This document shows positions 12,017-35,471 of a stretch of DNA of 64,000 nt, one piece after another. The notes below the pieces were generated by a model that made no database searches, was not told the origin of the DNA, and saw only the letters and a list, made by a program, of their open reading frames with translations. A program made the translations under genes and the position numbers. Within the stretch, counting starts at the first letter, position 1; every line of letters begins with the position of its first letter. Source of the DNA: an uncultured virus (IMG/VR IMGVR_UViG_3300025736_000015) (Duplodnaviria > Heunggongvirae > Uroviricota > Caudoviricetes); the IMG/VR virus record IMGVR_UViG_3300025736_000015. The stretch is one strand, 5' to 3'.

Positions 12017-12235
12017 ATGATTGACTTATATGGTGCAGACTCTTGCACAGAATGTAAAATAGCAAAGATGTGGATGCAGAAAACACCGATAGAGTTCAGA
12101 TATATTGATGTATCAACAATACCAGGTTTTGAAGGACCAATACCAATGCTTATGACTGAAGATGGACGAGAGCTTGTCGGGATGGGGCAAATAAAACAAT
12201 ATGTAAACCAAAAACTATCTGAGATGGGGTATTAG
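12017..12235 (+). CDS. Glutaredoxin/NrdH-like thioredoxin-fold protein
   Basis: LYGADSCTECK..K.......F.YIDV......PIPML...DG..LVG. Confidence 0.8.
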   Translation: MIDLYGADSCTECKIAKMWMQKTPIEFRYIDVSTIPGFEGPIPMLMTEDGRELVGMGQIKQYVNQKLSEMGY

Positions 12236-14618: not shown

Positions 14619-14741
14619 ATGAGTAATTTAGACTCTTGGTTTCAACAAATAGAAAAGATGGGGCAAGCAGATATTATAATGGAATTTGAGGGGAAGTGGA
14701 TGACCCCTCGTCAGTATTATCAGATGAAAGGGGGAAGGTAA
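14619..14741 (+). CDS. Small protein (40 aa)
   Basis: AGGTGA SD; MSNLDSWFQQIEKMGQADIIMEFEGKWMTPRQYYQMKGGR. Confidence 0.55.
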   Translation: MSNLDSWFQQIEKMGQADIIMEFEGKWMTPRQYYQMKGGR

Positions 14742-14746
14742 AACAA

Positions 14747-15079
14747 ATGGGAAAAGCAGGGTCGGCTGCAATAGGTGGCTTAGTCGGTGCAGGGTTAGGT
14801 GCCGGAATTGGTTACCTTCTTTATACACAGGATGTGCCAGGGTCAATACCTTGTCCAGTTGACCAGATATGTCCACAATGTGGAGAGCCTCTTGATTGTG
14901 AAGATTATGGGAACAACCAATATCTTTGTGAGTGTACAAACATAATTTGTAATTATCATTGTTATGATGTTCCCCTACCATGGGGTGTGTGTCAATTATT
15001 ATATATATTGCCATCAGCAGCTCTTTTTGGAATTATAGGAGTAATTGCTGGAGCAATGTTTGGAAAATCAAATAACTAA
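14747..15079 (+). CDS. Two-TM membrane protein with Cys-rich loop
   Basis: Gly-rich TM, then CPQCG..C......C.C....C, then TM; start reassigned to ATG 14747. Confidence 0.7.
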   Translation: MGKAGSAAIGGLVGAGLGAGIGYLLYTQDVPGSIPCPVDQICPQCGEPLDCEDYGNNQYLCECTNIICNYHCYDVPLPWGVCQLLYILPSAALFGIIGVIAGAMFGKSNN

Positions 15080-15317: not shown

Positions 15318-16178
15318 ATGCCAAATCCAGAAAATATGATGTTTGTTCGACCAAGGAATTGTCACTATTGTGAGCATGGTTATAATGCACTTGCACATAT
15401 GGTAAATTATGCTCAGCAGAAAGGAGCATGGAATATAACTGATTTACATGATACGCAGGCCGATAAGATACCCGTTTATGATGCTATTGACCAGACAGAC
15501 CCTTTTGCTTTTTATGGTTTTGGTCATGGTAATAATTGTGTATATACTGGCGATAGCGAAGAATCAATATTTACCTGTAATGAATGCAATAGGTTATCTG
15601 GTCGTGTTGTTTATCTTCTTTCTTGTCTTACTGCAGGGGGTCTTGGTCCTGCGATAATTGAACAGGGTGCTCTTGCCTATGCGGGTTTTAATGTTAGTTG
15701 GACTTGGGTTGCGGATACGGATGAGAGTGATGAGTTTGTTTATCCTGACCCATATAATGACCCATATGCATATGGTTTTTATGAGAGTGCAAACGAGCTA
15801 TGGAAGGCATTAGTAGATGGAAAAACTTTTCAAGAAGCAGTTCAGCAAAGCATAAATAAATATGATGAATGGATTGATTACTGGTATTATACTTCCCCAG
15901 AAGACCCTGCATCCCAGGATTGTATTATGTGGCTTGCCCATGACCGAGATGGTCTAGTAGCTTTGGATGTTTGTGATACATTAACAACTGAAGAAGAATG
16001 TGGAACACATGGTTGTTATTGGTATGAAAACTGTTGTCATAGTTCACCAGCACAAATATTTTCAGGAAATGTGGCAACAATTGCAATTACTATAGGCGTT
16101 ATAGGGTTAGCATTTGTTGCATATTATATACAATCACAGAAAGACGAAGCACCATACAAAACAAAAGCAACGAGTTAA
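15318..16178 (+). CDS. Caspase/gingipain-fold (clan CD, C25-like) cysteine peptidase + 1 Cys/Trp repeat + C-terminal TM anchor
   Basis: FYGFGHG ... VVYLLSCLT (His/Cys dyad) ... GALAYAGF; CGTHGCYWYENCCH; hydrophobic tail. Confidence 0.75.
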   Translation: MPNPENMMFVRPRNCHYCEHGYNALAHMVNYAQQKGAWNITDLHDTQADKIPVYDAIDQTDPFAFYGFGHGNNCVYTGDSEESIFTCNECNRLSGRVVYLLSCLTAGGLGPAIIEQGALAYAGFNVSWTWVADTDESDEFVYPDPYNDPYAYGFYESANELWKALVDGKTFQEAVQQSINKYDEWIDYWYYTSPEDPASQDCIMWLAHDRDGLVALDVCDTLTTEEECGTHGCYWYENCCHSSPAQIFSGNVATIAITIGVIGLAFVAYYIQSQKDEAPYKTKATS

Positions 16179-16241
16179 CTTTTTCCAGACACTAACTTTT
16201 TATACTTTTAATATCATTATATTTCTTGGTGAAGTGATTTA

Positions 16242-16958
16242 ATGTTTGAAAATATTTTAACTACACGAATAGGAAATATAACGCATTTAGGATATGTGGC
16301 ACCACAATATGCAGACCCAAGCCTACAATTTGGTACTTGCAATTTAGTAGCGGAATTTATTCCATGCACTGAAAAAGGTGGCAGTTTTTTTGAAATAACA
16401 AATAATGGCGATGCACACAATGAATGTGTTATAGCATATTCTATAGCGGGGCATACTCCTGAAGGTGAAGTGGGTATTGTGGGTGAACCTTTTCCACTGA
16501 CGACAGGCGAAACTGTAAATCTTGAAGTTGTTGCTCATTTTGCTACAGATTATTGGACACAAGATGAAACCATTACTATGACTTTTTATGTTGGTTGGAT
16601 GAGCGGTCCGTCTGAGGTATCAACTACCGACTCAAGAGAGCTTCAAACCTTTATTAATGCAGGTGGCACAACACCACCTATTTGTTCAACATATACTGAC
16701 TCAATTTCTTGTACAACTGCAGGTTGCTTTTGGTGTGATGGGGTATGCCAGAGCGAACAGTGTGATACACCATCTACTGATTGTGAGGAACATAAAACCA
16801 AATCATTATGTGAAACCGCTAATTGTTTTTGGTATCCTTATCCAAATCCAATTGGTGACCCATCTTGTCATGACCAAGAGATGTATATGAAATATCTTCC
16901 TTTTATAATCGTAGGTGTTGGTGGTGTAGTTGTACTAATGGCAATGATGAAGAGATGA
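16242..16958 (+). CDS. Ig-like head + 2 Cys/Trp repeats + C-terminal TM anchor
   Basis: FEITNNGD beta-domain; GCFWCDGVC; NCFWYPYPNPIG; LPFIIVGVGGVVVL. Confidence 0.8.
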   Translation: MFENILTTRIGNITHLGYVAPQYADPSLQFGTCNLVAEFIPCTEKGGSFFEITNNGDAHNECVIAYSIAGHTPEGEVGIVGEPFPLTTGETVNLEVVAHFATDYWTQDETITMTFYVGWMSGPSEVSTTDSRELQTFINAGGTTPPICSTYTDSISCTTAGCFWCDGVCQSEQCDTPSTDCEEHKTKSLCETANCFWYPYPNPIGDPSCHDQEMYMKYLPFIIVGVGGVVVLMAMMKR

Positions 16959-16965
16959 AAAAATT

Positions 16966-17934
16966 ATGGACAAACAGTCTTTATTAATGGGTGGTGTATT
17001 CCTTGCTGCAGGCGGGATTGCTTATTATTATTTATCCCAAATGCAAAATGATAATGGAAATGGTAACGGAACTTCAACTTGTTCTGATTATACTAATGCA
17101 GAACAGTGTGCCAATCATGATTGTTATTGGTATAATAATAGTTGCCATTCTGATGCTCCAGTATGTTCTGATTATGTTAATCAAACAGCATGCCAAAATG
17201 CAGGTTGCTATTGGTGTGATGGAGTATGTCAGAGCGAACAGTGTGGAACACCAACCACTGGTTGCGAAGAAATCGGATTTAATTGTTATCCAAGTATAAA
17301 TGGATGGCAAGTGTGTGACCCTTATACAAATAATCTTTGCAAATGTGATGGCTCTAATTGGAATCTTGTTGAAGAAAATAGTTCTATTTGTATAAATGAC
17401 ATTAGCTACCAAAAATGTGGCGTCAACGAAAGTCAGAGTGTAATGTGTTTTCCATATATGGGTTACGGCTCTGATGAATGTGATGAAGTAACGGATGGTT
17501 GTAGTTGTGCCACGGGAAACTGTCCAGCTGACCAGATGTGTGCTCGGAGTAATAAATGTGTTAGAAAATCTAATGGTGAAACATATACTCAGAGTTGTAG
17601 TGGATATGAAATTGAAACACCACATGGGCTTGAACATTGGTGTAGTAAAGACATAGGCGTAGCAAGAATAGCACAAACAATGCTAGGTGGACAAATATAT
17701 TACAAATGGGCAGGATGGGGTGATATTATACACTATGGTGTCGACCTATGGTATGATGGACAATGGAATAGGATTCTTGAAAGAAGTGCTCCGACTGTTG
17801 GAGATTGGGGTGTAATAACAATTGAACCAGCACTTTTTTCAAGTGCAATACCTTTTTCATATATTAGTGTTGGGGTAAATTCAGGAGTATCAAATGTTCA
17901 TATTAGAAGTTGGGGTTTAACATTTAAATATTAA
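16966..17934 (+). CDS. N-terminal TM + 2 Cys/Trp repeats + Cys-rich region + C-terminal beta domain
   Basis: LLMGGVFLAAGGIAYYYL; DCYWYNNSCH; GCYWCDGVC. Confidence 0.8.
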   Translation: MDKQSLLMGGVFLAAGGIAYYYLSQMQNDNGNGNGTSTCSDYTNAEQCANHDCYWYNNSCHSDAPVCSDYVNQTACQNAGCYWCDGVCQSEQCGTPTTGCEEIGFNCYPSINGWQVCDPYTNNLCKCDGSNWNLVEENSSICINDISYQKCGVNESQSVMCFPYMGYGSDECDEVTDGCSCATGNCPADQMCARSNKCVRKSNGETYTQSCSGYEIETPHGLEHWCSKDIGVARIAQTMLGGQIYYKWAGWGDIIHYGVDLWYDGQWNRILERSAPTVGDWGVITIEPALFSSAIPFSYISVGVNSGVSNVHIRSWGLTFKY

Positions 17935-17957
17935 AAAAAGGTGTAGGTGAAATAAAA

Positions 17958-18674
17958 ATGAATTTAAAAACAAAAACAGATTATGAGGCTAATGGAATAC
18001 TTGTTAGAGAACTTGCTTCTCCTGACCCGCATTTTAGAACTAAAATATTTACTACGGTTCCAGGTAGTTATGAAAAACCATATTACAATGCTATGTATGA
18101 AATCCCAAATTCTTTGAATAACAATGATGAATTTGATATGAATGCGTATGCTCTTCCTGCCAGTGGTCGAAGAGATTGTGATGCAATCATTTGGAATTTA
18201 AGTCCAGGACTTAGTAACAATAGCAAGTTAACAGAAGAACGGTCATTAGGACTTATCGCTCTTGTCACAATAATACTTATTATAATTGGTGCTATTCTTA
18301 TTCTTGCTTGTATATATTCTATAGTTGATTTGCTTTTTAACCCGCATCCATGTGGCCCACAAGGGGACATAGAGTCAATCAATGAATGTTACAAAAAAAT
18401 TATCTTTCCTGATTGTTCTTGGAAATGGTTTAATAGTTGTGCGGGTCCAGATGAGAACGGTGATGGGATACCTGATGGTGTAGTTGAAGATGAGGGTGAC
18501 CCACCACCAGACTACGGAACACTGATTCTTTATGGTGCATTAGCGATAGGTGGGGTACTTGTTTTAATGACGCTTTTGAAAAGTAGAGGGAAAGAAGCAT
18601 ATTATTCGGAACATCCAGGACGTCGCCCAGAACCAAAGCAGGGGTATTTATCACGTAAATGGTACGGAGATTAA
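17958..18674 (+). CDS. Two-TM membrane protein with Cys-containing loop and DxNxDG Ca-binding-like motif
   Basis: TM LGLIALVTIILIII..; DENGDGIPD; second TM LILYGALAIGGVLVL. Confidence 0.75.
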   Translation: MNLKTKTDYEANGILVRELASPDPHFRTKIFTTVPGSYEKPYYNAMYEIPNSLNNNDEFDMNAYALPASGRRDCDAIIWNLSPGLSNNSKLTEERSLGLIALVTIILIIIGAILILACIYSIVDLLFNPHPCGPQGDIESINECYKKIIFPDCSWKWFNSCAGPDENGDGIPDGVVEDEGDPPPDYGTLILYGALAIGGVLVLMTLLKSRGKEAYYSEHPGRRPEPKQGYLSRKWYGD

Positions 18675-18761
18675 AAGACAATCTCTTAATTTTTTTTCTT
18701 TTTTTTCATTCAAAAGTTTAAAATACTTAGTGTTACATTTATTAAATTGGTGAAGTGAAAA

Positions 18762-19772
18762 ATGGCATTAACCCTAACTGGTAAACAATATATTTGTGAA
18801 AATTTTGGTAACGGAAGCTTTTGTTGTGTAAATACTGGGTTGTCTTGGTATTACACAGTTGGTGGAACTAATTATAATGAAACAGGTGGAACAGCTCAGA
18901 TTGTTTCTCGTTTTGCATCGGGTCTTATTGATTCTCTTACCATGACTAGTCCGGCTCGTGGCACTTTCACACAGACACAATTAAATACTGCAAATGGTAG
19001 TTCTGTTACTTTACAGGATGCTTTAGAGATTACTTATCATGATGAGTCAACTGAAGACCAATGGTGTTTTATTCCTTGTGAGTCGCATGCTGACGAAAAT
19101 ACTTGTGTAAATGTTTATGGTTGCTTCTGGTATAATGGTTCTTGCCATACTACTTCACCAAGTTGTGAGCAATTAAATAACGCAACTGACTGCTCTATTT
19201 ATGGTTGTCATTGGTATAATGGTTCTTGTCATTCTTCTTGGACTTGTAATGTTATAACTAATGCTACTGATTGTTCTGCCTATGGTTGTTTCTGGTATAA
19301 TGGTGTTTGTAATTCAACAATGAGTTGTGAAGCCATAAATAACTCTACGGAATGTTTAGCCTATAATTGTTATTGGTATAATAATAGTTGCCATGGTACT
19401 GTTTCTTGTGAGGCTATTTCTACTGAGGTTGAATGTGAAAATCATGGTTGTTATTGGTGGAATGGTGCATGTCATTCAACTGCTCCATCATGTCCAGCAT
19501 TAAATAACCAAAGTGATTGTTTAGGTTATGGTTGTTATTGGTATCATAATGTCTGTCATTCTATAGACCAATCAAATCTTTGTTATTATCTTGATGCTCA
19601 TTGGCCGTTAGTAATAGCTAATGTATTTGAAATAGTAGATGCTTTTCTTTTTTCAACGCCACCATCTGGATATACATTTGTACCGACAATACAGAACGTC
19701 TTTGGTGTAATTGATTATTATCTTGGTTTTGATGGTGATGTAGCAACGGGATGTAGTATTATAGGAGGATAG
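18762..19772 (+). CDS. Head domain A + 6 Cys/Trp repeats + dockerin-like C-terminal module
   Basis: N-domain paralogous to 19776; VFEIVDAFL...YTFVPTIQNVFGVIDYYLGFDGD..TGC. Confidence 0.85.
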   Translation: MALTLTGKQYICENFGNGSFCCVNTGLSWYYTVGGTNYNETGGTAQIVSRFASGLIDSLTMTSPARGTFTQTQLNTANGSSVTLQDALEITYHDESTEDQWCFIPCESHADENTCVNVYGCFWYNGSCHTTSPSCEQLNNATDCSIYGCHWYNGSCHSSWTCNVITNATDCSAYGCFWYNGVCNSTMSCEAINNSTECLAYNCYWYNNSCHGTVSCEAISTEVECENHGCYWWNGACHSTAPSCPALNNQSDCLGYGCYWYHNVCHSIDQSNLCYYLDAHWPLVIANVFEIVDAFLFSTPPSGYTFVPTIQNVFGVIDYYLGFDGDVATGCSIIGG

Positions 19773-19775
19773 AAA

Positions 19776-20564
19776 ATGTCTCTTAGCCAATCTGGAATTG
19801 ATTATATATGCCAGAATTTTGGTTTATCAGATTGTTGTGTATCAAGTGGGTTGAACTGGTATTATACATCATCTGGAACGGATTACCCAGAAAGTGGTGG
19901 AACAGCTCAGATTGTTTCTCGTTTTGCATCGGGTCTTATCGAGTCTCTTACCATAACTAATCCTGTTCGTGGCAGTTTTACACAGTCACAATTAAATACT
20001 GCAAATGGTGGTAGTGTTACATTAATGGATGCACAAGAAATCACATTTCATGATTCACCAGCTGAAGACCAATGGTGTTATAGTGAAACTCTGTGTTCAT
20101 CTTATACAGATGAAGCAACATGTTATGCAAATGGTTGTTACTGGTATGGTGGAAGTTGCCATAGCTATTTCCCAAGTTGTGAAATACTAACCACTCAAAG
20201 TGACTGTGAAAATTATAATTGTTATTGGTGCGATGGAGTATGCCAAGGAACTCCCTGTGGTACACCAGACTGTGGAGATTATACCGACCAATATAATTGT
20301 GAAGCAAATAGTTGTTATTGGTGGAATGATAGTTGTCATTCAACTTCTGAACCAACAGGTTGCGAAAGCTATACAACTGAAGGTGCTTGTATAGGAGCAG
20401 GTTGTCATTGGTATCCATTTCCAAATCCAATAGGCGAATCATCTTGTCATAGTAAGGAATGGTATATGTCTTATCTACCATATATTGCAGTTGGTGCGGG
20501 TGGACTTGTTGTACTTGCGTTATTGTTTAGGCGTTCGGGTTCAGATACTATACTTGTTCAATAA
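19776..20564 (+). CDS. Head domain A + 4 Cys/Trp repeats + C-terminal TM anchor
   Basis: GGTAQIVSRFASGLI shared with 18762; tail CHWYPFPNPIG...YLPYIAVGAGGLVVL shared with 16242. Confidence 0.85.
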   Translation: MSLSQSGIDYICQNFGLSDCCVSSGLNWYYTSSGTDYPESGGTAQIVSRFASGLIESLTITNPVRGSFTQSQLNTANGGSVTLMDAQEITFHDSPAEDQWCYSETLCSSYTDEATCYANGCYWYGGSCHSYFPSCEILTTQSDCENYNCYWCDGVCQGTPCGTPDCGDYTDQYNCEANSCYWWNDSCHSTSEPTGCESYTTEGACIGAGCHWYPFPNPIGESSCHSKEWYMSYLPYIAVGAGGLVVLALLFRRSGSDTILVQ

Positions 20565-20587
20565 TCCAAAATACATTACGGAGTCAT

Positions 20588-22000
20588 TTGATGATAAAAA
20601 AAAAAACATTTAGTACTGTTAAACAGTTAACATCCTTTTCAGCTGGTGTGCATACGCTTGCTGATTGTCCGTGGCCACCATCTGATTCTCAATGCAGTCC
20701 GTGTTTAATTTGGTGGCCAGATGATAAGAATGTTGGTTTTAATATATGGGGTGAATATGGTGGCGATTCTACCAGAGAACGCATGCATGCTCAACCTTTC
20801 TGTGTAACAAATAGTTCATTAAAAAATATGACTTTTAAAGTAGCTAGATTGCGTGAAACAGCGGTTCCAACTAATCATGGTATGGTTGTTTGTATTGCTT
20901 CTGCTGATGCACTTGATTTTGAACCAAAATTTTCTGGAGGTGGCATTACACAAAATTTTTTAGACCAGATGGAATGGTATGGCTATATTGCAACTGTTTC
21001 AGGTGGTGCTCCTACAACACATTATTATGTATGTGCTGATGTAAATTTATCTCTTGATACAAGTAAAACATGGTATCTTTTATTTCTAACAAATGGGTCA
21101 TATGAGGTTTGTGGATGGCAGATGAGTGGAATAGGTGCCAGTGGACTACCAGATGGAGTACAACCACTTTTTGAATATAATTTAAATGAACCAGGTAATC
21201 CAAATGGTTGGGGACTAGTGGATAATTATTTCAGAGGAACAGTAATGCCTTATCAATCAGGTAGTGAGGCATTAGATGAAGGTTTTTGTCAAATAGTTAA
21301 TCCTAATTTTCCGGGAACAGCAACAGCCGGAACAACATATACTGCTAGTTTTGATGTAGACCAACTTACTGCTTTTCCATGTGGTTGTCCTGAAACTATT
21401 GTTTCTGTTATATTAAATAGAGATACAAGTACTCCATTAGGTAGTGAACAAAGTTTTCTTTTAGATTGTGGTTATAACGGTGCAAACGGTTGGCCAGTTC
21501 AAATTAATTTTGATGGAGGTGGAACATTTCATGGTCAATTGCAGGTTGGTCATAAAACTTCTGAAACAGAATGGCAATCTGATGATTTTCATGATTTTGA
21601 TATAGTAGTAACTGCTTTGCCTTGTTCCAGTCATTCAGATGCTACTGCTTGTATAAATGGTGGTTGTTATTGGTGGAATAATAGTTGCCATGATGCACAA
21701 CCTACGGCTTGTAGTCAACTTAATAATCAGACGGATTGTTCAACCTATGGTTGTTACTGGTATGGTGGAACCTGTCATAGCGAACCAGAACCTCAAACAG
21801 ATTTATGTTCCTATATACAAGACAAAGGAGGACCAACAGGGCTTGTTATAGTAGATGTATTTGAAATAGTAGATGCTTTATTGTTCCAAACACCACCAAC
21901 AGGATATACATTTATACCATCTATACAGAATGTCTTTGGTGTAATCGATTATTATCTTGGCTTTGATGGAGATGGTGCAACAGGATGCAATTTTTTCTAA
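20588..22000 (+). CDS. Beta-sandwich heads + 2 Cys/Trp repeats + dockerin-like module
   Basis: AQPF....L....F.V..L head; C-terminal VFEIVDALL...NVFGVIDYYLGFDGD. Confidence 0.85.
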   Translation: MMIKKKTFSTVKQLTSFSAGVHTLADCPWPPSDSQCSPCLIWWPDDKNVGFNIWGEYGGDSTRERMHAQPFCVTNSSLKNMTFKVARLRETAVPTNHGMVVCIASADALDFEPKFSGGGITQNFLDQMEWYGYIATVSGGAPTTHYYVCADVNLSLDTSKTWYLLFLTNGSYEVCGWQMSGIGASGLPDGVQPLFEYNLNEPGNPNGWGLVDNYFRGTVMPYQSGSEALDEGFCQIVNPNFPGTATAGTTYTASFDVDQLTAFPCGCPETIVSVILNRDTSTPLGSEQSFLLDCGYNGANGWPVQINFDGGGTFHGQLQVGHKTSETEWQSDDFHDFDIVVTALPCSSHSDATACINGGCYWWNNSCHDAQPTACSQLNNQTDCSTYGCYWYGGTCHSEPEPQTDLCSYIQDKGGPTGLVIVDVFEIVDALLFQTPPTGYTFIPSIQNVFGVIDYYLGFDGDGATGCNFF

Positions 22001-22033
22001 TTAAAAACAAACCGTTGGGGGCATTTTTATAGA

Positions 22034-23863
22034 ATGCTAGACCAAGAACAAGCTAATTCAGATTACGGGGTTTATATTAATTCAACTAACGCATGGATGC
22101 AGACAGTTACAAATAATAATAACAATCTGATAAGTGTAGAATTTGGTATAGTGCGTAAAGGAATGCCTTCAGATTTATTTGTAGAACTCAGGGACGATAA
22201 CGGGGTAGAAGTTTTTGTAATCCCAGCAAGTGTTTTACCCGATGAAGTTGCTCATTGGGTTAGTATTAATCCATCTAGTGGTACTTTTACAAATAAAAAT
22301 ATTGAAATATCTTTGGTGACAAATGAACCATACAGTACAACAACATATTGGGGGTGGATGATACAATCACAAAATCCATATGATAAAGGTACATTATATC
22401 AGTTTGAAAATGGTGTTAAAACAGAATATATAGAAGATGGTGCTCCACATGATGCTACTTTCAGAACATATACTGAAGGACCAGCTTGTTCCACTTATTC
22501 AGATAGTGGGGCATGTATAACTGCTGGTTGTTATTGGTGGAATAATACTTGTCATGATGGTCCACCAACTGAATGTTCACAATTAAATAATCAAACAGAG
22601 TGTGAATCAGCTAATTGTTATTGGTGTGATGGCACCTGTCAAAATACACCATGCACAGTTAATTGTTCAGATTACACATCTCAAACAGCTTGTCAAAATG
22701 CTGGTTGTTATTGGTGTGGTAGTGCCTGTCAAAGTACACCATGCGGGGCTTGTTCCACTTATACAAATGAATCAGCCTGTGAATCAGCTGGTTGTCGTTG
22801 GTGGAATAATAGTTGTCATGATTCAAAGCCTGTATATTGTAGTGAGTTGAATAATTCTTCTGATTGTACTCGATGGGGTTGTTATTGGTATAATGATGCA
22901 TGTCATGGTTCTCCACAGCCTACCGAGGATGTATTGGATACGGCCATTAGTTGTGGTTGGGTGAATGGTTGCAGAGACTATGGGCCATTAAAGACTCATT
23001 TTAATATGTCAGATATGGTTTATGTTTTTTTCCATTTAAATGGTCCTGATTTTTATGGTAAAACACTTCATGCTGACTGGTATTGGAATGGAAAATATAT
23101 TTGTGATAGTGCAGGACATACATATACTGAACATTATACTAATGTTTGTTATTATACATGGATTGATGGTTTTGGAGAAGATTTCGGTCCAGGTAGTGGA
23201 TATTTAAAATTATTTGTTGATGGTGTTCACTTGGGTAATTGTAATGTTTGGTATGTTGATTTACCTTCGTGTGATTACTGGGATAATTCTTCTGACTGTG
23301 AACAATATGGTTGCTGGTGGTGGAACAATACTTGCCAGACCAATCAACCAACAGCATGTGACCAGATTACAGTTGTATCAGATTGTAACCGATGGGGTTG
23401 TTATTGGTATGAAGGAGCATGTCATGGTGATTGTCCATGGTGGTGGAATGATGGTTGTCATTCTAATCCTCCACAGTATTGTTCAGATTTGAATAATCAA
23501 ACTGATTGCGAAGGATTTGGTTGTTATTGGTATAATAATACTTGTAATTCTGAACCATTTGTTGAACCAGATATTTGTGATTGGGTTATAGAAAAAGGAG
23601 GAATAGCTGGCTTGGATGTTAGTGAAGTATTTGAAATAATAGACTCGTATGTGCAGTTAACTCCACCTGCCGGATATACATTTATACCAACTATCCAACA
23701 AATTTTTGGAGTAATAGATTATTATCTTGGAATTGATGGTGATTTAAAAACAGGTTGTAAATTTTATTCAGCATGTTCAGAAATGCCAACTGAACAAGAA
23801 TGCTTAAAATATGGATGTTATTGGGTTGATGGTGCATGCCAAACAGGATTACCATCTCCTTGA
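22034..23863 (+). CDS. Two beta-sandwich domains + ~10 Cys/Trp repeats + dockerin-like module
   Basis: LDQEQ...DATFRTY head; repeats; VFEIIDSY...QIFGVIDYYLGIDGD. Confidence 0.85.
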   Translation: MLDQEQANSDYGVYINSTNAWMQTVTNNNNNLISVEFGIVRKGMPSDLFVELRDDNGVEVFVIPASVLPDEVAHWVSINPSSGTFTNKNIEISLVTNEPYSTTTYWGWMIQSQNPYDKGTLYQFENGVKTEYIEDGAPHDATFRTYTEGPACSTYSDSGACITAGCYWWNNTCHDGPPTECSQLNNQTECESANCYWCDGTCQNTPCTVNCSDYTSQTACQNAGCYWCGSACQSTPCGACSTYTNESACESAGCRWWNNSCHDSKPVYCSELNNSSDCTRWGCYWYNDACHGSPQPTEDVLDTAISCGWVNGCRDYGPLKTHFNMSDMVYVFFHLNGPDFYGKTLHADWYWNGKYICDSAGHTYTEHYTNVCYYTWIDGFGEDFGPGSGYLKLFVDGVHLGNCNVWYVDLPSCDYWDNSSDCEQYGCWWWNNTCQTNQPTACDQITVVSDCNRWGCYWYEGACHGDCPWWWNDGCHSNPPQYCSDLNNQTDCEGFGCYWYNNTCNSEPFVEPDICDWVIEKGGIAGLDVSEVFEIIDSYVQLTPPAGYTFIPTIQQIFGVIDYYLGIDGDLKTGCKFYSACSEMPTEQECLKYGCYWVDGACQTGLPSP

Positions 23864-23901
23864 ACTTTTATCATTACGAATAAACTAGGAAGATATATAT
23901 T

Positions 23902-25320
23902 ATGGCCGATGAAAATGAAATGTTGTTTATAAGAGGAAAAAACTGTAGTTATTGTATACACGGCTATAATGGCATAGGACATATGGTAGATTATGCTGTT
24001 GATAAAGGGTTATGGAATATAACTGATGCTGGAGCAGAAAATGCTAATAAAACTTTTGTATATGATGCAATTGACCAATATAATCCTTTTAGTGTTTTTG
24101 GTTTTGGTCATGGCAATTCTTGTATATTTACAGGTGATACACCTGAAAGTATTTTTACCTGTGATGAATGTAGTAATTTAGCAGGACGGGTTGTTTATCT
24201 TATTTCATGTTTAACAGGAAAACAATTGTGTTCTGAAATTTTAGACCAAGGTGGTAAAGCAGCAGTTGGTTATAATGTTACTTGGACATATGTAGCTCTT
24301 TGGAAAGATGTAATGAATCCAGTTGAATTCAAATATGATGACCCATATGATGACCTTTATGCAAAAGGATTTTGGGAAAGTGCTAACGAGTTTACAAAGT
24401 CATTATTGGATGGTAAAACAATTCCCGAAGCGGTTCAAGCGTGTATTGATAAATATGATGAATGGATTGATTTCTGGTTTGACCATTCGAGTTATCCGTT
24501 ATCAGCATCATGTATACAATATCTTGCGTATGACCGTGATGGTCTTGTTGCATTTATTTCATGCGGTGCGATAACTGATGAAGCCGAGTGTTTAGCTAAT
24601 GGTTGTCATTGGCACAATAATACCTGTTTTTCTTGTGAAGAAATTACTTCAGTAATTGAATGTAATAATTATGGATGTTACTGGTATGATGGTAGTTGTC
24701 ATGGTTTAGGAAATATATGCAATTGGATTGAGGATAATCCATCTATTACCATTGACAAAGTATTTGAAATAATAGATAGTTATACGTCTCAAACATCCCC
24801 AGATGAAACAAAATATGATTTTGTTCCTACACTTGAACAAGTATTTGGTGTCATTAATTACTATCTTGGATATGATGGTTCGGATAAAACAGGATGTATT
24901 AGTTGTGAACACTATACTTCTGCTGAAGATTGTAGTGATGCTGGTTGTTATTGGTATGGTGGAGTTTGTCATAGTGAACTTGTATGTGAGGATATTCTTG
25001 ATGAAAATTTATGTGGAGATAATGGATGTTTTTGGTATAATAATAGTTGCCATGGTACTCCTCAATCAACATGTGAACAATTAACTAACCAAACTGATTG
25101 TTATGCTCAGGGTTGCTATTGGTATAATGGTAGTTGTCACGATTTTATAATCTGTTCAGAGATAAATAATGATGGAGAGTGTAGTTGGCTTGGATGTTAC
25201 TGGCATGGTTCTGACTGCCGTGATACTTTGAATTGTGAAGATGTTGAAACTGAGGGTTTATGCAATGAATTCGGTTGTTACTGGTATAATAATAGTTGCC
25301 ATGCAGACCCACAATACTAA
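23902..25320 (+). CDS. Caspase/gingipain-fold peptidase (paralog of 15318) + 7 Cys/Trp repeats + internal dockerin-like module
   Basis: VFGFGHG ... VVYLISCLTG; VFEIIDSY...QVFGVINYYLGYDG. Confidence 0.8.
   Translation: MADENEMLFIRGKNCSYCIHGYNGIGHMVDYAVDKGLWNITDAGAENANKTFVYDAIDQYNPFSVFGFGHGNSCIFTGDTPESIFTCDECSNLAGRVVYLISCLTGKQLCSEILDQGGKAAVGYNVTWTYVALWKDVMNPVEFKYDDPYDDLYAKGFWESANEFTKSLLDGKTIPEAVQACIDKYDEWIDFWFDHSSYPLSASCIQYLAYDRDGLVAFISCGAITDEAECLANGCHWHNNTCFSCEEITSVIECNNYGCYWYDGSCHGLGNICNWIEDNPSITIDKVFEIIDSYTSQTSPDETKYDFVPTLEQVFGVINYYLGYDGSDKTGCISCEHYTSAEDCSDAGCYWYGGVCHSELVCEDILDENLCGDNGCFWYNNSCHGTPQSTCEQLTNQTDCYAQGCYWYNGSCHDFIICSEINNDGECSWLGCYWHGSDCRDTLNCEDVETEGLCNEFGCYWYNNSCHADPQY
25162..25305 (+). 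repeat. 144-bp near-identical duplication, copy 1
   Basis: 141/144 identical to 25697-25840. Confidence 0.9.
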
Positions 25321-25357
25321 CGTTTAAATAAAACCTGAAACATTTTATATTGGTAGT

Positions 25358-26278
25358 GTGAAAAAAAAGATGCAACAAAACAACCAATTTGGATTATTTA
25401 TGCTTGATGGTACGCTTTGCGATTGGATTAATGATAAAGGGGGAAAAGATACATTAACCATTATTAATGTTTTTGAAATATTTGATGCATATATTTATCA
25501 AAATCCACCAACTGATTATAGTTTTGTACCAACTTTGACTAACACAGTTGGCGTTATTGATTATTATCTAGGTTTTGATGGTGATGACAAAACAGGATGT
25601 TATGATTGCGAAACATATACTAATTATTCCGAATGTAATGCTGCTGGTTGCCATTGGTATAATAATAGCTGTCATCCTTCTTTGATTTGTAGTGATATAA
25701 ATAATGATGGGGATTGTAGTTGGCTTGGATGTTACTGGCATGGTTCTGACTGCCGTGATACTTTGAATTGTGAAGATGTTGAAACTGAGGGCTTATGCAA
25801 TGAATTCGGTTGTTACTGGTATAATAATAGTTGCCATGCAAATACACCAACATGTGAAGGCCTTAATAACGAGTTAGACTGTACAGGATATGGTTGTTAC
25901 TGGTTCAATGGAGCATGTTATTCTGAACCACCTTGTGAAAACTTTAATTATAAGATAGATTGCCAAAACGCTGGTTGTTATTGGTGGAGGGATAGCACTT
26001 GTCATAGCGAACTTGAACCAGACCCATGCAATCAATACACAGATTGGGAGGATTGCCTAGCAAACGGGTGTGAATGGTATAATGGTGCTTGTCGTTCATG
26101 GGCACCAATTTGTATTAATCATACAAACCAAACCACCTGCGAAGCAAACGGATGCTATTGGTATAACTACGTTTGCAATTCTGAACCGTGGGAATGCAGT
26201 AGTCAGCCTACTCAATATACATGTACACAAGCGGGTTGTTATTGGTATGATGATAGTTGCCATAGTGAACCACAATAA
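25358..26278 (+). CDS. Headless member: N-terminal dockerin-like module + 8 Cys/Trp repeats
   Basis: LCDWINDKGG...VFEIFDAY...GVIDYYLGFDGD then repeats; start codon uncertain. Confidence 0.8.
   Translation: MKKKMQQNNQFGLFMLDGTLCDWINDKGGKDTLTIINVFEIFDAYIYQNPPTDYSFVPTLTNTVGVIDYYLGFDGDDKTGCYDCETYTNYSECNAAGCHWYNNSCHPSLICSDINNDGDCSWLGCYWHGSDCRDTLNCEDVETEGLCNEFGCYWYNNSCHANTPTCEGLNNELDCTGYGCYWFNGACYSEPPCENFNYKIDCQNAGCYWWRDSTCHSELEPDPCNQYTDWEDCLANGCEWYNGACRSWAPICINHTNQTTCEANGCYWYNYVCNSEPWECSSQPTQYTCTQAGCYWYDDSCHSEPQ
25697..25840 (+). repeat. 144-bp near-identical duplication, copy 2
   Basis: 141/144 identical to 25162-25305. Confidence 0.9.
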
Positions 26279-29807: not shown

Positions 29808-30545
29808 ATGGTTGTATTAGGAATACAAAACGCTACCTTTGCGGAAACAGCATTAACCACTGAGGAGCAGACGCTATGGGAAACACAATATAACGACCTG
29901 TTCTTTGCCCCGTGGAGTTTTGAACGACAGTATGTAAATAGTAAAAAAACTGTTGTCGATGCGGGAATTAGAGCAGCGAAGAACGCTCTCGATGAAAAGA
30001 AATTTGGTGGATTAAACTGTGCAGACAGTGAACTTGGTATCACTACCATCCGTCCAGGACAAGTAGGTCTTGTAAACGGAGCAACACCAGAAGCTGACAA
30101 TGTATGGAAATGGAAACATGACTGTATAAAGCAAGCACAAGGTGTCGGTTTTGAGAACTGGATACACAGTCCGGCAGCAGGAGCTCCAACAACTTCATTT
30201 GCAACTCCTGAAGAAGCTTTTTACATACCACTATATATACATGAAGAAAACTGCAGTCCAAGAATACAGACTGTAAAACTTGACATTGGAAGAGCCAACA
30301 TATTGTATTATGATGTTGCAGCTTGTAGAATGCGAGATTACATATCAGGCACTAATTTGATACCTTTGCCAACAACTTTCTGGGCACCAGAAATGGATGT
30401 CAAGGTGGCATTAGGTTTCAAGATGAATGGAACTACTGAACCACGTTTAGGCGGGTTCTGCGTGGCCCTTGGGTCATTTCTTGACGCAACATACTATACT
30501 GCTAGTAGTAATTCTGTTGTAGCTGGAACAACTGCGTCCACTTAA
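29808..30545 (+). CDS. Candidate major capsid protein (single jelly-roll-like, inferred)
   Basis: Strong promoter and GAGGTGA SD; first gene of a structural operon; beta-rich C-terminal half (FATPEEAFYIP...LPTTFWAPEMDVKVAL...LGGF). Confidence 0.5.
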   Translation: MVVLGIQNATFAETALTTEEQTLWETQYNDLFFAPWSFERQYVNSKKTVVDAGIRAAKNALDEKKFGGLNCADSELGITTIRPGQVGLVNGATPEADNVWKWKHDCIKQAQGVGFENWIHSPAAGAPTTSFATPEEAFYIPLYIHEENCSPRIQTVKLDIGRANILYYDVAACRMRDYISGTNLIPLPTTFWAPEMDVKVALGFKMNGTTEPRLGGFCVALGSFLDATYYTASSNSVVAGTTAST

Positions 30546-34290: not shown

Positions 34291-34800
34291 ATGGTAGAAT
34301 CATGGGGAACAGGAAGACCAGATTATACTGGACAACAAACAGTAGTTGATGAAGTTACAAAGGTAAATGTAACTGCTGTTGCTTATATTTCAGGTCAACC
34401 AATTTATATGACTAGTGGTCATTTAACTGTTGTTTCAGGTGTTGTAGATGCTATTGTCAGTGGAACAGTTGTAACAAGCGTAAGTGGTCAAGCATTACAT
34501 CTTGGTGCCTCGGATACTGTTCGTACTGCTGATTTAATACGCATTACAGGTGCAAGTGGTGGGGAGCCTATTGCCAGGGTTGGTTGGTGCAGTGGAAACC
34601 TTCATAGCATACTTGTTAAAAGCATGAGTGGAAATGAAGATATTTATATTGGGGGAATAGATTGCAGGCCATATAGTGGTCATGGTTTTGCTTTATCAAT
34701 GGCTGAAGCAGTAACAGTTGACATGGATTCACCGATGAACGTATATGCTTATGCAGCCATTAGTGGACAATTTTTGACCTGGATGGGAACGGATTATTAA
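34291..34800 (+). CDS. Ser-Gly-rich spike/fibre-like protein (paralog of 42502)
   Basis: Periodic V/I-x-SG N-terminal repeats; 10 SG. Confidence 0.7.
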   Translation: MVESWGTGRPDYTGQQTVVDEVTKVNVTAVAYISGQPIYMTSGHLTVVSGVVDAIVSGTVVTSVSGQALHLGASDTVRTADLIRITGASGGEPIARVGWCSGNLHSILVKSMSGNEDIYIGGIDCRPYSGHGFALSMAEAVTVDMDSPMNVYAYAAISGQFLTWMGTDY

Positions 34801-35471
34801 TGCCAATTCTTGGTGATGATACTCATTTAGTAAATACTATTACTTCTGGTTTAGCATCATATATTAATGGCACTATTTTTACTTATACTGATGGGGATAG
34901 AGCGGTTGTTACCTCTATGTCAGCATGGGCCGATGGTGGCACTAGTATGAAACTAGCTATCTATTACGTTGAGGATGATGCTGTCACATATACTCTTTTG
35001 AAAGCAACTGAGCTTATTTCTGACACAACAGGTTTTTCTTGGAAGACAGGTAATATAGCACAGCCTTGTCCTGTGCTTAGAACAGGTAGAAGATATGTTC
35101 TTGTAGCAACTGCTAATTCAGCTGTAGGTATTGATGGTGCGTGGAATAATGCTTGGTCTGATGGTCGTGGTGAATGTATTTGGACCGGTTGGCCTGATTT
35201 ACCCGAATGTATTACTTTTGGTTCTCAACAAGCAGACCCTCCAGAAGGTAGCCCATGTCCAGAATGCATAGGATGCACTACTCAAGAAGAATGTGAAGAA
35301 AATACCTGTTTTTGGTATAGTGGTGGTTGTCATTTTTATCCAGAAGCACAATTTAGTGATTTTTTTAGTCTTGTAAATAAATATCATATCTATGCTACTT
35401 ATCATGTTCCTGGCGGTGGAGCAGGGATAACATTCAAAAAAACAGATTTGAAATTAAAACTGAAAAAATAA
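34800..35471 (+). CDS. Beta-sandwich protein with one inserted Cys/Trp repeat
   Basis: MKLAIY.. domain; CIGCTTQEECEENTCFWYSGGCH. Confidence 0.75.
   Translation: MPILGDDTHLVNTITSGLASYINGTIFTYTDGDRAVVTSMSAWADGGTSMKLAIYYVEDDAVTYTLLKATELISDTTGFSWKTGNIAQPCPVLRTGRRYVLVATANSAVGIDGAWNNAWSDGRGECIWTGWPDLPECITFGSQQADPPEGSPCPECIGCTTQEECEENTCFWYSGGCHFYPEAQFSDFFSLVNKYHIYATYHVPGGGAGITFKKTDLKLKLKK

What the first reader, a model, noticed from the sequence alone, without database searches (positions are those of the whole stretch)
15318..26278. Combinatorial head x Cys/Trp-repeat stalk x anchor surface-protein system
Seen: nine genes in a row (all but 17958), plus 34800, share a ~26-28 aa unit, C-x7/8-C-x3/4-C-x-W-x4-C-H (e.g. 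CEQLNNATDCSIYGCHWYNGSCH). I count about 43 copies. Each protein mixes three part types: a head domain, 1-10 repeats, and either a TM helix or a ~55-aa 'VFEI.D...GVIDYYLG.DGD..TGC' module. The same head occurs with both anchor types. The protease head has a TM in 15318 and the module in 23902; head A has a TM in 19776 and the module in 18762. The same TM tail (W-Y-P-x-P-N-P-I-G...YLP..VG.GG) sits on two different heads (16242, 19776). ORF 25358 has no head at all. Established: the 4-Cys C-x-W spacing recalls trypanosome VSG C-terminal domains, PSI domains and ciliate surface-antigen repeats. Inference: a shuffled, modular virion or host-surface display system in an archaeal virus, where the repeats are both structural spacers and recombination points. 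I do not know of a described equivalent.
Basis: partly seen in the sequence, partly recalled or inferred. Interest (0 to 1): 0.9.

Follow-up and report, generated by a model that had tools for sequence, protein, structure and literature searches.

The report
Modular cysteine-repeat stalk proteins, virus-like element
A row of genes in an uncultured archaeal virus-like element builds proteins from swappable parts (a variable head, a stalk of tiny cysteine-stapled beads, and either a membrane helix or a small dockerin-like plug), probably to display adhesins and a protease on a particle or cell surface.

Summary
A regex for the unit finds 40 copies in 10 ORFs, none in other six-frame ORFs of the window, and 0.19 on average in shuffles. 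The repeat models confidently as a short helix plus beta-hairpin (pLDDT 95). It is only marginally PSI-like: plexin PSI2 at Z 3.1, and Pfam PSI above cut-off in 1 of 85 relatives. The "protease head" has a caspase/gingipain/CHAT fold (Foldseek E 1e-5) with an invariant His-Gly and Ser-Cys dyad. The VFEI module is a rare family (173 clusters in 1.84 billion). It is C-terminal in 151 of 170 proteins, closed by two invariant Cys, and internally duplicated. Its best fold matches are dockerins, but weakly (Z 3.8). One relative splits it around two Pfam cohesin domains. Relatives keep the gene order but differ in repeat number, head-anchor pairing and stalk type. This is evolutionary shuffling; I saw no programmed switching. 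Viral identity and the docking partner remain unproven: no capsid or terminase gene was found and there are no IMG/VR relatives. I rate it a new variant of known modular surface-display systems.

The parts
15318..16178 (+). PROT-R1-TM: clan-CD-fold cysteine peptidase head (aa 1-216), one repeat, C-terminal TM helix
   Evidence: repeat. AF2 pLDDT 95.9; Foldseek hits to CHAT, gingipain and caspases; invariant H70-G71 and S102-C103. (architecture, C-terminal TM).
16242..16958 (+). HEADB-R1-R'-TM: unknown head, one canonical repeat, one long-loop repeat, TM tail
   Evidence: The tail is 55% identical to that of 19776.
16966..17934 (+). N-terminal TM helix, two repeats, Cys-rich region and beta-rich C-terminal domain (HEADC)
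   Evidence: Conserved at the same position in L006, L007, L008, L012, L014 and L018.
17958..18674 (+). Conserved two-TM protein with no canonical repeat, always between the HEADC and HEADA genes
   Evidence: Orthologues are found in L006, L007, L008, L012, L014, L018 and L021.
18762..19772 (+). HEADA-R6-MOD; MOD at 19563-19766
19776..20564 (+). HEADA-R3-R'-TM
20588..22000 (+). HEADD-R2-MOD; MOD at 21788-21997. The last 129 aa were modelled.
   Evidence: (pLDDT 95.3). (weak dockerin and PSI fold matches).
22034..23863 (+). HEADE1-R5-HEADE2-R3 (plus a partial unit)-MOD-R1; MOD at 23558-23770
23902..25320 (+). PROT-R2-MOD-R5; MOD at 24700-24909. This is the only PROT with MOD among 13 PROT genes compared.
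25358..26278 (+). Headless MOD-R8; MOD at 25400-25609. Its 5' part is collinear with the 3' part of 23902 (241 nt at 85% identity).
34800..35471 (+). HEADF plus one repeat, encoded inside the conserved downstream module
12017..12235 (+). Small glutaredoxin-like protein with a CTEC (CxxC) motif; a possible thiol-disulfide helper. The link to the cluster is an inference.
   Evidence: Glutaredoxin 18.6 bits, below the cut-off of 22.9. (sequence).

Best explanation
The cluster is a tandem family of modular appendage proteins. It lies in an uncultured, AT-rich, virus-like archaeal element of about 76 kb, which the run records label as coming from salt-lake metagenomes.

Each protein has three kinds of part.
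1. A variable head. Heads include a clan-CD (caspase/gingipain/CHAT-fold) cysteine peptidase that looks catalytically intact. They also include head A, a domain shared with signal-peptide-bearing surface proteins in an ANME-1 genome.
2. A stalk of 0-10 independent mini-domains of 27-28 aa, each a short helix plus a beta-hairpin with four invariant Cys and one Trp. The four Cys are most likely two disulfides. The fold is distantly PSI-like.
3. An attachment device. This is either a C-terminal transmembrane helix placed right after a modified last repeat, or MOD.

MOD is a 65-aa helical module closed by two invariant Cys. It is built from an internal duplication and has a weakly dockerin-like fold.

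Inferred mechanism. The TM versions are held in a membrane of the particle or the infected cell. The MOD versions plug non-covalently into a socket. Candidate sockets are head A, whose gene is next to a MOD gene even in otherwise unrelated elements, or a cohesin-type domain, as found in one relative. Heads are thereby displayed at set distances for adhesion and for proteolysis of the host envelope.

The similar, in-frame repeat units let recombination change stalk length and swap heads and anchors over evolutionary time.

Shown: the module anatomy, the folds, family sizes, synteny and variation among relatives. Inferred: disulfides, location on a virion, docking by MOD, and the role of the protease.
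For: Repeat and specificity:
- 40 copies, 0 elsewhere in the window, shuffle mean 0.19.
- 403 distinct canonical units in the window and its relatives, with invariant C/C/C/W/C. H follows the last C in 336 of 403.
- AF2 model of R-R-MOD has pLDDT 95.3. Each repeat is a helix plus hairpin and MOD is four helices.
- The repeat matches plexin A2 PSI2 at Z 3.1, rmsd 2.4, 36 residues aligned, 28% identity. Pfam PSI scores 31 bits on relative P0052.

Protease head:
- pLDDT 95.9.
- 77 PDB matches at E<=1e-3, led by SAVED-CHAT (E 1e-5, TM 0.59), gingipains and caspases.
- H70-G71 and S102-C103 are invariant in 13 of 13 sequences.

MOD:
- 173 clusters among 1.84 billion representatives.
- C-terminal in 151 of 170 proteins; only about 4 of 170 look to have a signal peptide.
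- C7 and C67 are invariant in 40 of 40.
- The two halves align at hhalign probability 92%, E 5e-7. None of 20 column-permuted controls reached that score.
- 7 of the 50 best rows from 48,161 chains are dockerins, including the top two at Z 3.8.
- P0150 carries the two halves of MOD around two Pfam Cohesin domains (51 bits). Its kind of gene follows HEADA-R4-MOD in L012.
- P0188 has MOD next to a Pfam Dockerin_1 domain.
- MOD is attached to many extracellular-type heads: PEGA, Big_2, fn3, BACON, beta-helix, nuclease, glycosidase-like.

MOD and HEADA coupling:
- The next gene after a MOD gene starts with HEADA in 2 of 2 loci found with the MOD profile alone.
- The same holds in the distant L022-L025 clade.
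- MOD and HEADA proteins, plus a UDP-glucose dehydrogenase, are the only proteins that phmmer finds shared between the window and those elements.

Modularity in relatives:
- The gene order is conserved while repeat numbers vary.
- Head D occurs with TM and with MOD as adjacent paralogues in L013. There is a HEADD-HEADE2 fusion in L006, and a different head on the same TM tail at the HEADB position in L006.
- The stalk is replaced by PEGA domains in L024 and by a 42-aa Cys repeat in L012.

Virus-like context:
- HNH endonucleases and MT-A70 are present, with no tRNA and no housekeeping gene matched in the 64 kb.
- Relatives' contigs top out at 73-100 kb.
- The cluster always abuts a conserved module that includes a 243-aa protein of 107 clusters. 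That protein is 92% identical between the window and L006, against 44-76% for the cluster genes.
Against: - No capsid, portal, terminase or packaging ATPase was recognised.
- There are no relatives in IMG/VR or in deposited phage and archaeal virus genomes.
- Most of the proteins lack signal peptides, so a surface location needs cell lysis or an unusual topology.
- The dockerin likeness rests on low Z scores, which the tool warns can be a common helical arrangement.
- A MOD profile finds no dockerin in the PDB. It does not align significantly to the true dockerin of P0188 (hhalign probability 0.4%).
- The canonical Ca-binding D/N loops are absent, by direct reading of the alignment.
- No cohesin was detected in the window itself.
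- The PSI link is marginal. Pfam PSI hits 0 of 11 window proteins and reaches its cut-off in 1 of 85 relatives. The repeat profile finds no PSI chain in the PDB.
- Foldseek found nothing for R-R-MOD in the PDB or BFVD.
Confidence: 0.5

Rival explanations
1. The contig is not a virus. It is a plasmid-like element or a genomic island of a small-genome archaeon such as a DPANN cell. On this view the proteins decorate the cell surface for attachment to a partner or host cell, together with the large glycan-synthesis cluster downstream.
For: - About 28 kb of glycosylation and nonulosonic-acid genes follow the cluster.
- No viral hallmark was detected.
- There are no IMG/VR relatives.
- A close homologue (85% identity) of the 243-aa conserved protein is filed by NCBI under a Nanoarchaeota MAG.
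- Head A occurs with signal peptides on a cellular ANME-1 contig.
- The literature reports extensive dockerin/cohesin surface systems in ANME archaea (PMC9012536, passages of section 32).
Against: - From reading the translations, only 16966 of the ten repeat proteins has a hydrophobic N-terminal segment. The other nine show no N-terminal signal peptide, which cell-surface export would normally need.
- Three HNH endonucleases are present, nearly all genes run in one direction, and there is no tRNA or housekeeping gene in 64 kb.
- Related contigs cluster at 73-100 kb.
- Binning of short contigs into MAGs is weak evidence of cellular origin.
Confidence: 0.2
2. MOD is not a non-covalent plug. It is a C-terminal sorting signal that the co-encoded membrane-anchored clan-CD enzyme (PROT-R-TM) recognises and cuts. 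The enzyme would then transfer the cargo covalently to a lipid, glycan or protein. This is how PorU acts on T9SS C-terminal domains and how GPI8 acts on GPI signals (both comparisons are recalled from general knowledge, not tested here).
For: - PROT, MOD and HEADA are the three modules still found together in the most distant relatives, L022 and L024.
- MOD is C-terminal in 151 of 170 proteins.
- PROT keeps an invariant His/Cys dyad and is usually TM-anchored on a one-repeat stalk.
Against: - MOD is a folded, disulfide-closed, very confidently modelled domain rather than a short signal.
- It is internal or N-terminal in 19 of 170 proteins and in 3 of 5 window proteins.
- In 23902 it is fused to PROT itself.
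- L026 and L027 show MOD and HEADA with no PROT in the stretch read.
Confidence: 0.15
3. The repeats are cytoplasmic zinc-binding knuckles, and the proteins are intracellular scaffolds or regulators rather than surface structures.
For: - Four invariant Cys, usually followed by His, in 403 units.
- Most of the proteins lack signal peptides.
Against: - The spacing C-x8-C-x4-C-x6-C has no CxxC knuckle.
- Homologous repeats occur behind signal peptides in bacterial proteins P0034 and P0037.
- They also occur directly before C-terminal TM helices.
- The fold and the marginal sequence matches point to extracellular PSI-type domains.
- The partner domains are extracellular types: PKD, PEGA, Ig-like.
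Confidence: 0.07
4. The cluster is a programmed antigenic or host-range variation system that actively reshuffles heads and anchors within a population, in the manner of VSG or pilin cassette switching.
For: - About 40 similar DNA units of 60-86% identity sit in 11 kb.
- A 241-nt block is 85% identical between neighbouring genes.
- Contigs from four other runs fragment in this region. They show single-contig joints between repeat units of different genes (17231 to 22591) and shared loose ends at 15078 and 24105.
Against: - No recombinase, reverse transcriptase or invertase was found near the cluster.
- Copies from two other samples are 100% and 99.84% identical, with no change in repeat number.
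- The joints are low depth (2-3x), come from contigs only, and have short sides. The tool flags such joints as typical of repeats or of other organisms.
- The HEADA tree keeps MOD and TM types apart: 9 label changes against a shuffled mean of 20.3.
Confidence: 0.05

Closest known systems
PSI (plexin-semaphorin-integrin) domain, Pfam PF01437, and the related Paramecium surface antigen repeat PF01508
   Same: - Both are small, Cys-stapled extracellular modules with a short helix, a beta-hairpin and a C-x-W core.
- 5 of 38 window units even read C-x-W-C.
- The fold match to plexin A2 PSI2 is Z 3.1 at 28% identity.
- Pfam PSI scores 31 bits on P0052. Paramecium_SA scores 22.4 bits on P0064.
   Different: - The unit is about half the size (27 aa with 4 Cys, against about 50 aa with 6-8 Cys).
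- It forms long tandem arrays.
- It is found in prokaryotic and virus-like proteins.
- No window protein reaches any Pfam threshold, and the repeat profile finds no PSI chain in the PDB.
Dockerin modules of cellulosome-type cohesin-dockerin systems (Pfam PF00404 / PF00963)
   Same: - About 65 aa, mostly C-terminal, and appended to very diverse extracellular heads including enzymes.
- Internal two-fold duplication of a helix motif.
- Dockerins are the best fold matches.
- A relative carries cohesin domains in the same cluster, and another protein carries MOD beside a true dockerin.
   Different: - No significant sequence similarity.
- No Ca-binding D-x-N-x-D loops.
- Closed instead by an invariant Cys pair.
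- The partner is unknown, and no cohesin was detected in the window.
Clan CD cysteine peptidases (caspases, gingipains C25, CHAT)
   Same: - Caspase-haemoglobinase fold, with His-Gly and Ser-Cys after hydrophobic strands, invariant in 13 of 13 sequences.
   Different: - No Pfam, NCBIfam or PDB sequence match.
- Carried on a PSI-like stalk with a TM or MOD anchor.
- Substrate and activity are unknown.
Modular phage and virus fibres and decoration proteins with repeated spacer domains and exchangeable receptor-binding heads (general knowledge, recalled)
   Same: - Variable distal head, a repeated spacer of variable length, a conserved attachment end, and faster evolution than the neighbouring conserved genes (44-76% against 75-92% identity with L006).
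   Different: - The attachment end here is C-terminal and of two alternative kinds.
- The stalk is a chain of disulfide mini-domains rather than a trimeric coiled coil, beta-helix or Ig domains.
- Virion location is not shown.

Membership tests
PSI domain (PF01437) | Match to the Pfam model at or above the gathering score | tested here: not met
   0 of 11 window proteins hit at E<=1. Among 85 relatives, 1 is above the cut-off (P0052, 31 bits) and 2 are below it (P0038, P0064).
PSI domain (PF01437) | Small helix plus beta-sheet fold knotted by conserved disulfides around a C-x-W-C core | tested here: inconclusive
   The model shows a helix plus hairpin. VIA gives plexin A2 PSI2 at Z 3.1, rmsd 2.4, 36 residues, 28% identity. 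There are only 4 Cys per unit, and the W-C form occurs in 5 of 38 units. Disulfide pairing was not readable.
Dockerin (PF00404) | Match to the Pfam model or to solved dockerin sequences | tested here: not met
   No Pfam hit. The MOD profile finds no dockerin in the PDB. hhalign against the true dockerin of P0188 gives probability 0.4%.
Dockerin (PF00404) | Tandem duplication of a loop-helix segment in a module of about 60-70 residues | tested here: met
   The two halves of MOD align at hhalign probability 92%, E 5e-7. None of 20 column-permuted controls reached that score.
Dockerin (PF00404) | Two EF-hand-like Ca-binding loops rich in Asp/Asn | tested here: not met
   By direct reading of alignment A4, there is one partly conserved Asp before helix 1 and no acidic loop before helix 2. 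An invariant Cys pair is present instead.
Dockerin (PF00404) | Dockerin fold | tested here: inconclusive
   VIA wide search: 7 dockerin chains among the 50 best of 48,161. The best are Z 3.8 and 3.8, rmsd 2.8, 55-56 residues aligned. Foldseek found nothing.
Dockerin (PF00404) | Binds a cohesin partner | not testable with these tools
There is a cohesin in relative P0150 but none was detected in the window.
Clan CD cysteine peptidases | Caspase-haemoglobinase fold | tested here: met
   Foldseek PDB gives 77 matches at E<=1e-3. SAVED-CHAT 8tl0 has E 1e-5 and TM 0.59, followed by gingipain R and K and by caspases 3, 7 and 8. Model pLDDT is 95.9.
Clan CD cysteine peptidases | Catalytic His (His-Gly) and Cys, each following a hydrophobic strand | tested here: met
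   H70-G71 and S102-C103 are invariant in 13 of 13 aligned heads.
Clan CD cysteine peptidases | Membership of a named family (C14, C25, CHAT and others) by sequence model | tested here: not met
   No Pfam, NCBIfam or PDB sequence hit.
Virus (any realm) | Recognisable capsid, portal, terminase or packaging ATPase gene | tested here: inconclusive
   None was found by Pfam or PHROGs in the 64-kb window or by PDB profiles of two conserved families. About 11.7 kb of the longest contig that holds these proteins (75,714 nt) lies outside the 64-kb window. The folds of the conserved small proteins were not predicted.

The most novel reading that the evidence does not exclude
A virus-encoded plug-and-socket display system, analogous to a cellulosome. 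The disulfide-closed, calcium-free, dockerin-like MOD docks onto head A or onto cohesin-type domains. Membrane-anchored HEADA-TM proteins would then serve as bases. HEADA-stalk-MOD proteins would act as extenders, offering a new head A at their tip. Other MOD proteins (the protease, head D, head E) would be exchangeable cargo. This would give branched appendages of tunable length on an archaeal virus particle.
Probability: 0.2. Interest if true: 0.85.

Novelty: new variant of a known kind. Interest (0 to 1): 0.62.

Why it matters
Three things follow if this reading is right.

1. It defines two protein modules that current libraries do not capture. One is a minimal four-Cys, PSI-like stalk bead, seen as 403 distinct units here. 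The other is a rare dockerin-like C-terminal module of 173 clusters.
2. It shows how a widespread but unclassified group of 73-100-kb archaeal virus-like elements assembles adhesins and a caspase-fold protease from interchangeable parts.
3. It offers a testable route to the attachment machinery and host range of viruses or elements of uncultured archaea (DPANN or ANME-1 associated). The small, very confidently modelled modules are also easy to express and test.

Tried and rejected
- Complex prediction (HEADA + PROT + MOD) was unavailable, so no binding test was made.
- Foldseek of the R-R-MOD model found nothing significant in the PDB or BFVD.
- PDB sequence-profile searches found nothing meaningful for PROT, MOD, the repeat, the 29808 family or the 160-aa paralogues.
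- Pfam, PHROGs and NCBIfam gave no hit on the window's cluster proteins.
- ESM Atlas gave no usable lead for head A (TM below 0.4) or for 29808 (scores about 0.8, which is chance level).
- The phage collection tblastn found nothing with 18762 or 29808.
- Three IMG/VR scans found no relative.
- No whole genome is held for the window.
- Earlier findings of this scan: nothing on record.
- Host hint from the GDP-mannose dehydratase: its homologues carry no taxon names.
- N-glycosylation idea. 220 of 403 units have at least one N-x-S/T. The association is significant only at position 19 (odds ratio 2.2, p 2e-4) and not at position 6 (p 0.19). Asn-Gly there may simply be a turn, so I make no claim.
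- Sequencing runs. No RNA holder is listed. The runs laid were contigs only, at low depth. Their joints and loose ends could not separate real variants from repeat-induced assembly breaks or co-occurring relatives.
- Literature. Five searches found no description of this system. The Asgard "cysteine-rich" proteins of PMC11529989 are HNH-like nucleases and are unrelated (passages read). The preprint 10.1101/2025.02.15.638363 does not mention it (passages read).

Full report
**1. The observation**

The window is AT-rich (GC 0.30-0.41), and nearly all ORFs of 100 aa or more lie on the + strand.

The regex C.{6,9}C.{2,5}C.W.{3,6}C finds 40 non-overlapping copies in ten ORFs and none in 17958. The ORFs are 15318, 16242, 16966, 18762, 19776, 20588, 22034, 23902, 25358 and 34800. 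Two long-loop variants lie just before the TM helices of 16242 and 19776, and 22034 holds a partial unit.

With overlapping matches counted, there are 41 in the 11 named ORFs. There are 0 in all other six-frame ORFs of 70 aa or more in the window (19,684 aa). In 200 shuffles of the same proteins the mean was 0.19 and the maximum 4.

At the DNA level the units are 60-86% identical. A 241-nt block is 85% identical between the neighbouring genes 23902 and 25358.

- Protease head: 15318 vs 23902, 57.5% over 219 aa.
- Head A: 18762 vs 19776, 69% over 103 aa.
- TM tail: 16242 vs 19776, 55% over 60 aa.
- VFEI module (MOD below): in 18762, 20588, 22034, 23902 and 25358.

**2. What the modules are**

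None of the cluster proteins hits Pfam, PHROGs or NCBIfam.

*Stalk repeat and MOD model.* I modelled the last 129 residues of 20588 (two repeats plus MOD) from a 38-row alignment. The model has pLDDT 95.3. Each repeat is a short helix followed by a beta-hairpin. MOD is four helices.

*Repeat conservation.* Across the window and its relatives I collected 403 distinct canonical units. All have invariant C1, C10, C15, W17 and C22, and His follows the last Cys in 336 of them.

*PSI likeness of the repeat.* This is marginal.
- VIA gives plexin A2 PSI2 at Z 3.1, rmsd 2.4, 36 residues, 28% identity.
- Pfam PSI reaches its cut-off in 1 of 85 relatives scanned (P0052, 31 bits).
- Two more relatives score below the cut-off. 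Paramecium_SA scores 22.4 bits on P0064.
- A profile of the 38 window units finds no PSI chain in the PDB.

*Protease head.* The model, from 13 rows, has pLDDT 95.9. It matches 77 PDB chains at E<=1e-3, led by a SAVED-CHAT protease (E 1e-5, TM 0.59), then gingipains R and K, then caspases. His70-Gly71 and Ser102-Cys103 are invariant in 13 of 13 sequences. It therefore has a clan-CD fold with an intact dyad. It matches no named family by sequence.

**3. MOD**

MOD is about 65 aa. Its consensus is LCxWIxxxGGPxxLTIxxVFxIxDSYLFxxPPxGYxFxPTIQxVFGVIDYYLGFNGDxxTGC, and the first and last Cys are invariant in 40 of 40 sequences.

*Internal duplication.* The two halves align to each other at hhalign probability 92%, E 5e-7 and score 25.8. 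Twenty column-permuted controls scored at most 12.9.

*Fold.* In an all-against-48,161-chain VIA search, the best two matches are type I dockerins (4dh2_D and 5nrk_B). Both have Z 3.8, rmsd 2.8 and 55-56 residues aligned. Five more dockerins are among the 50 rows shown. These Z values are low, and the tool warns that such values can reflect a common helical arrangement.

*Evidence against homology to dockerins.*
- Foldseek found nothing.
- The MOD profile finds no dockerin in the PDB.
- It does not align significantly with a true dockerin (probability 0.4%).
- The Ca-binding loops are missing, by direct reading of the alignment.

*Family size and placement.* A profile search of 1.84 billion cluster representatives finds only 173 proteins at E<=1e-3.
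- 151 carry it within 6 residues of the C-terminus, 8 at the N-terminus and 11 internally.
- 49 also carry the Cys repeat.
- About 4 have a signal-peptide-like start, by a crude test.

*Heads attached to MOD.* They include PEGA, Big_2, fn3, BACON, beta-helix, Kelch, a nuclease and a glycosidase-like domain.

*Two telling proteins.*
- P0188 has MOD directly followed by a Pfam Dockerin_1 domain (39.8 bits).
- P0150 carries the first half of MOD at its N-terminus and the second half at its C-terminus. Two Pfam Cohesin domains (51.3 bits) lie between them.
- A P0150-like gene follows HEADA-R4-MOD in relative L012.

**4. Relatives**

*Where they were found.*
- A search of 5.8 billion proteins with 25358 returned 86 hits. 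Of these, 76 carry no name; the rest carry only generic labels, most often 'hypothetical protein'.
- A metagenome scan seeded with head A returned 24 loci.
- The GTDB species-representative scan returned one locus. It is a cellular contig of a Methanophagales (ANME-1) MAG, where head-A-like domains follow a signal peptide.

*Gene order.* HMMs of each module show a conserved order. It runs PROT-R-TM, HEADB-R-TM, N-terminal-TM-R-HEADC, the 17958 family, HEADA-Rn-MOD, HEADA-(R)-TM, then further MOD proteins. After these come small hydrophobic proteins and the 29808 family.

*Repeat number differs among orthologues.*
- HEADA-MOD has 1, 3, 4, 5 or 6 repeats.
- HEADA-TM has 0 repeats in eight genes, 1 in two genes and 3-4 in five genes.

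*Head-anchor pairing also varies.*
- PROT carries MOD in 1 of 13 PROT genes, the window's 23902.
- Head D has a TM tail in L013:6091 and MOD in the adjacent L013:7528.
- Head D is fused through repeats to HEADE2 in L006 and L007, and has neither anchor in L008.

*Comparison with L006.* This is the closest distinct relative.
- Flanking genes are 75-92% identical in protein. The cluster genes are 44-76% identical.
- The HEADB position is occupied by a different head on the same tail.
- The HEADA-TM gene lies elsewhere in the cluster.
- The window's four genes 20588-25358 are replaced by two genes.

*The stalk itself is exchangeable.* L012 uses a 42-aa Cys repeat followed by one PSI-like unit. 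The distant L022-L025 clade uses PEGA domains.

**5. How much is "shuffling"?**

I built a tree of 43 head-A domains. Rows from L002 and L003, which are identical to the window, and hits shorter than 86 aa were dropped. The tree is poorly resolved: 7 of 40 inner branches are well supported. Anchor type is nevertheless clustered, with 9 label changes against a shuffled mean of 20.3. None of 200 shuffles was as low. The MOD and TM versions of head A are thus mostly old paralogues that have been kept side by side.

Two copies of this very element from other samples are 100% identical (12,441 nt) and 99.84% identical (3,147 nt). Neither shows a change in repeat number.

Contigs of four further runs, labelled salt lake metagenome, hold the element at 2-8x depth. 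They break repeatedly inside the cluster. A few single-contig joints appear, one between repeat units of 16966 and 22034. All four runs share loose ends at 15078 and 24105. Contigs at this depth cannot tell real variants from assembly effects or co-occurring relatives.

The evidence therefore supports domain shuffling and stalk-length change on an evolutionary timescale. It does not support a programmed switch.

**6. MOD and head A travel together**

Two loci were found with the MOD profile alone, in 2 of 68 Methanophagales-order genomes (2 of 401 in the phylum sample). In both, the gene after the MOD gene starts with head A.

One of these lies on an 82-kb, GC 0.44-0.46 contig. Its content resembles the window: a LAGLIDADG endonuclease, methyltransferases, glycosyltransferases and sugar-nucleotide enzymes. 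It also holds an ORF open to the locus edge (over 2,200 aa read) with PKD, Ig-like, nuclease and weak dockerin matches.

Between the window and these distant elements, phmmer finds only the MOD and head-A proteins and a UDP-glucose dehydrogenase in common. This adjacency across otherwise unrelated elements is my main reason to propose head A as a candidate socket for MOD. The complex prediction that would have tested it was unavailable.

**7. Context: virus or not**

*In favour of a virus-like element.*
- Three HNH endonucleases, an MT-A70 methylase, no tRNA and no housekeeping gene matched in 64 kb.
- Relatives' longest contigs are 73-100 kb.
- A strongly conserved downstream module includes a 243-aa protein family of 107 clusters with nearly fixed length.
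- Most of these extracellular-type proteins lack signal peptides, as is usual for particle proteins assembled in the cytoplasm.

*Against.*
- No capsid, portal or terminase was recognised.
- No relatives were found in IMG/VR or in the phage collection.

*Host hints are weak.* NCBI files one close homologue of the 243-aa protein under a Nanoarchaeota MAG. Head A and the MOD-HEADA pair occur in ANME-1 bins. For background, ANME archaea are reported to carry many dockerin- and cohesin-bearing proteins (PMC9012536, passages of section 32).

**8. Verdict**

The safest description is a family of head-stalk-anchor appendage proteins of an unclassified archaeal virus-like element. It is built from three parts:
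- a new PSI-like stalk bead;
- a new dockerin-like module or a TM helix as the anchor;
- a set of heads that includes a clan-CD peptidase.

That the proteins sit on a virion, that MOD docks non-covalently, and that the protease attacks the host envelope are all inferences. Supplementary files of the papers cited were not consulted.

Noticed in passing
window 29808-30545: A 245-aa protein belongs to a family of 107 clusters with nearly fixed length (243 aa) and 41-100% identity. It is 92% identical to the L006 copy and is the best-conserved gene near the cluster. It is a candidate major structural protein, but no fold or family was found.
   Followed up: partly
window 30564-31040, 31052-31537, 31549-32031: Three tandem paralogues of about 160 aa (63-69% identical to one another), also triplicated in L006. 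No family or PDB match.
   Followed up: partly
window 35524-64000: About 28 kb of glycan-synthesis genes: GT1, GT2 and GT10 glycosyltransferases, two NeuB, two cytidylyltransferases, dehydratases, an aminotransferase, a GH1 hydrolase and methyltransferases. This is unusually large for a 76-kb element.
   Followed up: no
window 4420-4791 (+), 27617-28531 (-), 32125-32703 (+): Three HNH endonuclease genes. Two of them interrupt the conserved module downstream of the cluster.
   Followed up: no
window 12017-12235: A 72-aa glutaredoxin-like protein with a CTEC motif (Pfam score below the cut-off), conserved in L006 at 64% identity. It may be a thiol-disulfide helper for the Cys-rich proteins.
   Followed up: partly
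window 14696-15079: A 127-aa protein just upstream of the cluster with a glycine-zipper TM, a Cys-rich middle part and a second TM helix.
   Followed up: no
P0150; L012:10892-11116: MOD is split into an N-terminal and a C-terminal half around about 500 residues that hold two cohesin domains and six copies of a 42-aa Cys repeat. This looks like a domain insertion into MOD.
   Followed up: partly
L012:796-1905, 3414-4592, 6368-7618: A second stalk repeat of about 42 aa (C-x-N-P-x-G-x-E-G...DPTH-x-Y-x-C-x-x-G-x-W) takes the place of most PSI-like units between the head and the TM tail.
   Followed up: no
L024:7916-8380, 8390-9076, 10665-11684, 17791-19023: Several proteins of the distant clade end in a short shared motif (C-x-x-P-x-C followed by alternating hydrophobic residues). 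This may be a third kind of C-terminal tag.
   Followed up: no
P0034, P0037: Bacterial proteins with a signal peptide, 4-5 of the same Cys repeats and a C-terminal region that reads like a VWA domain. The precomputed family PF28373 is not in the local Pfam copy. The repeat is therefore not confined to archaeal elements.
   Followed up: no
window 15078 and 24105: Contigs of all four other runs share the same unaligned sequence just upstream of these two points. This suggests a co-occurring variant with different flanks, but it was not resolved.
   Followed up: partly
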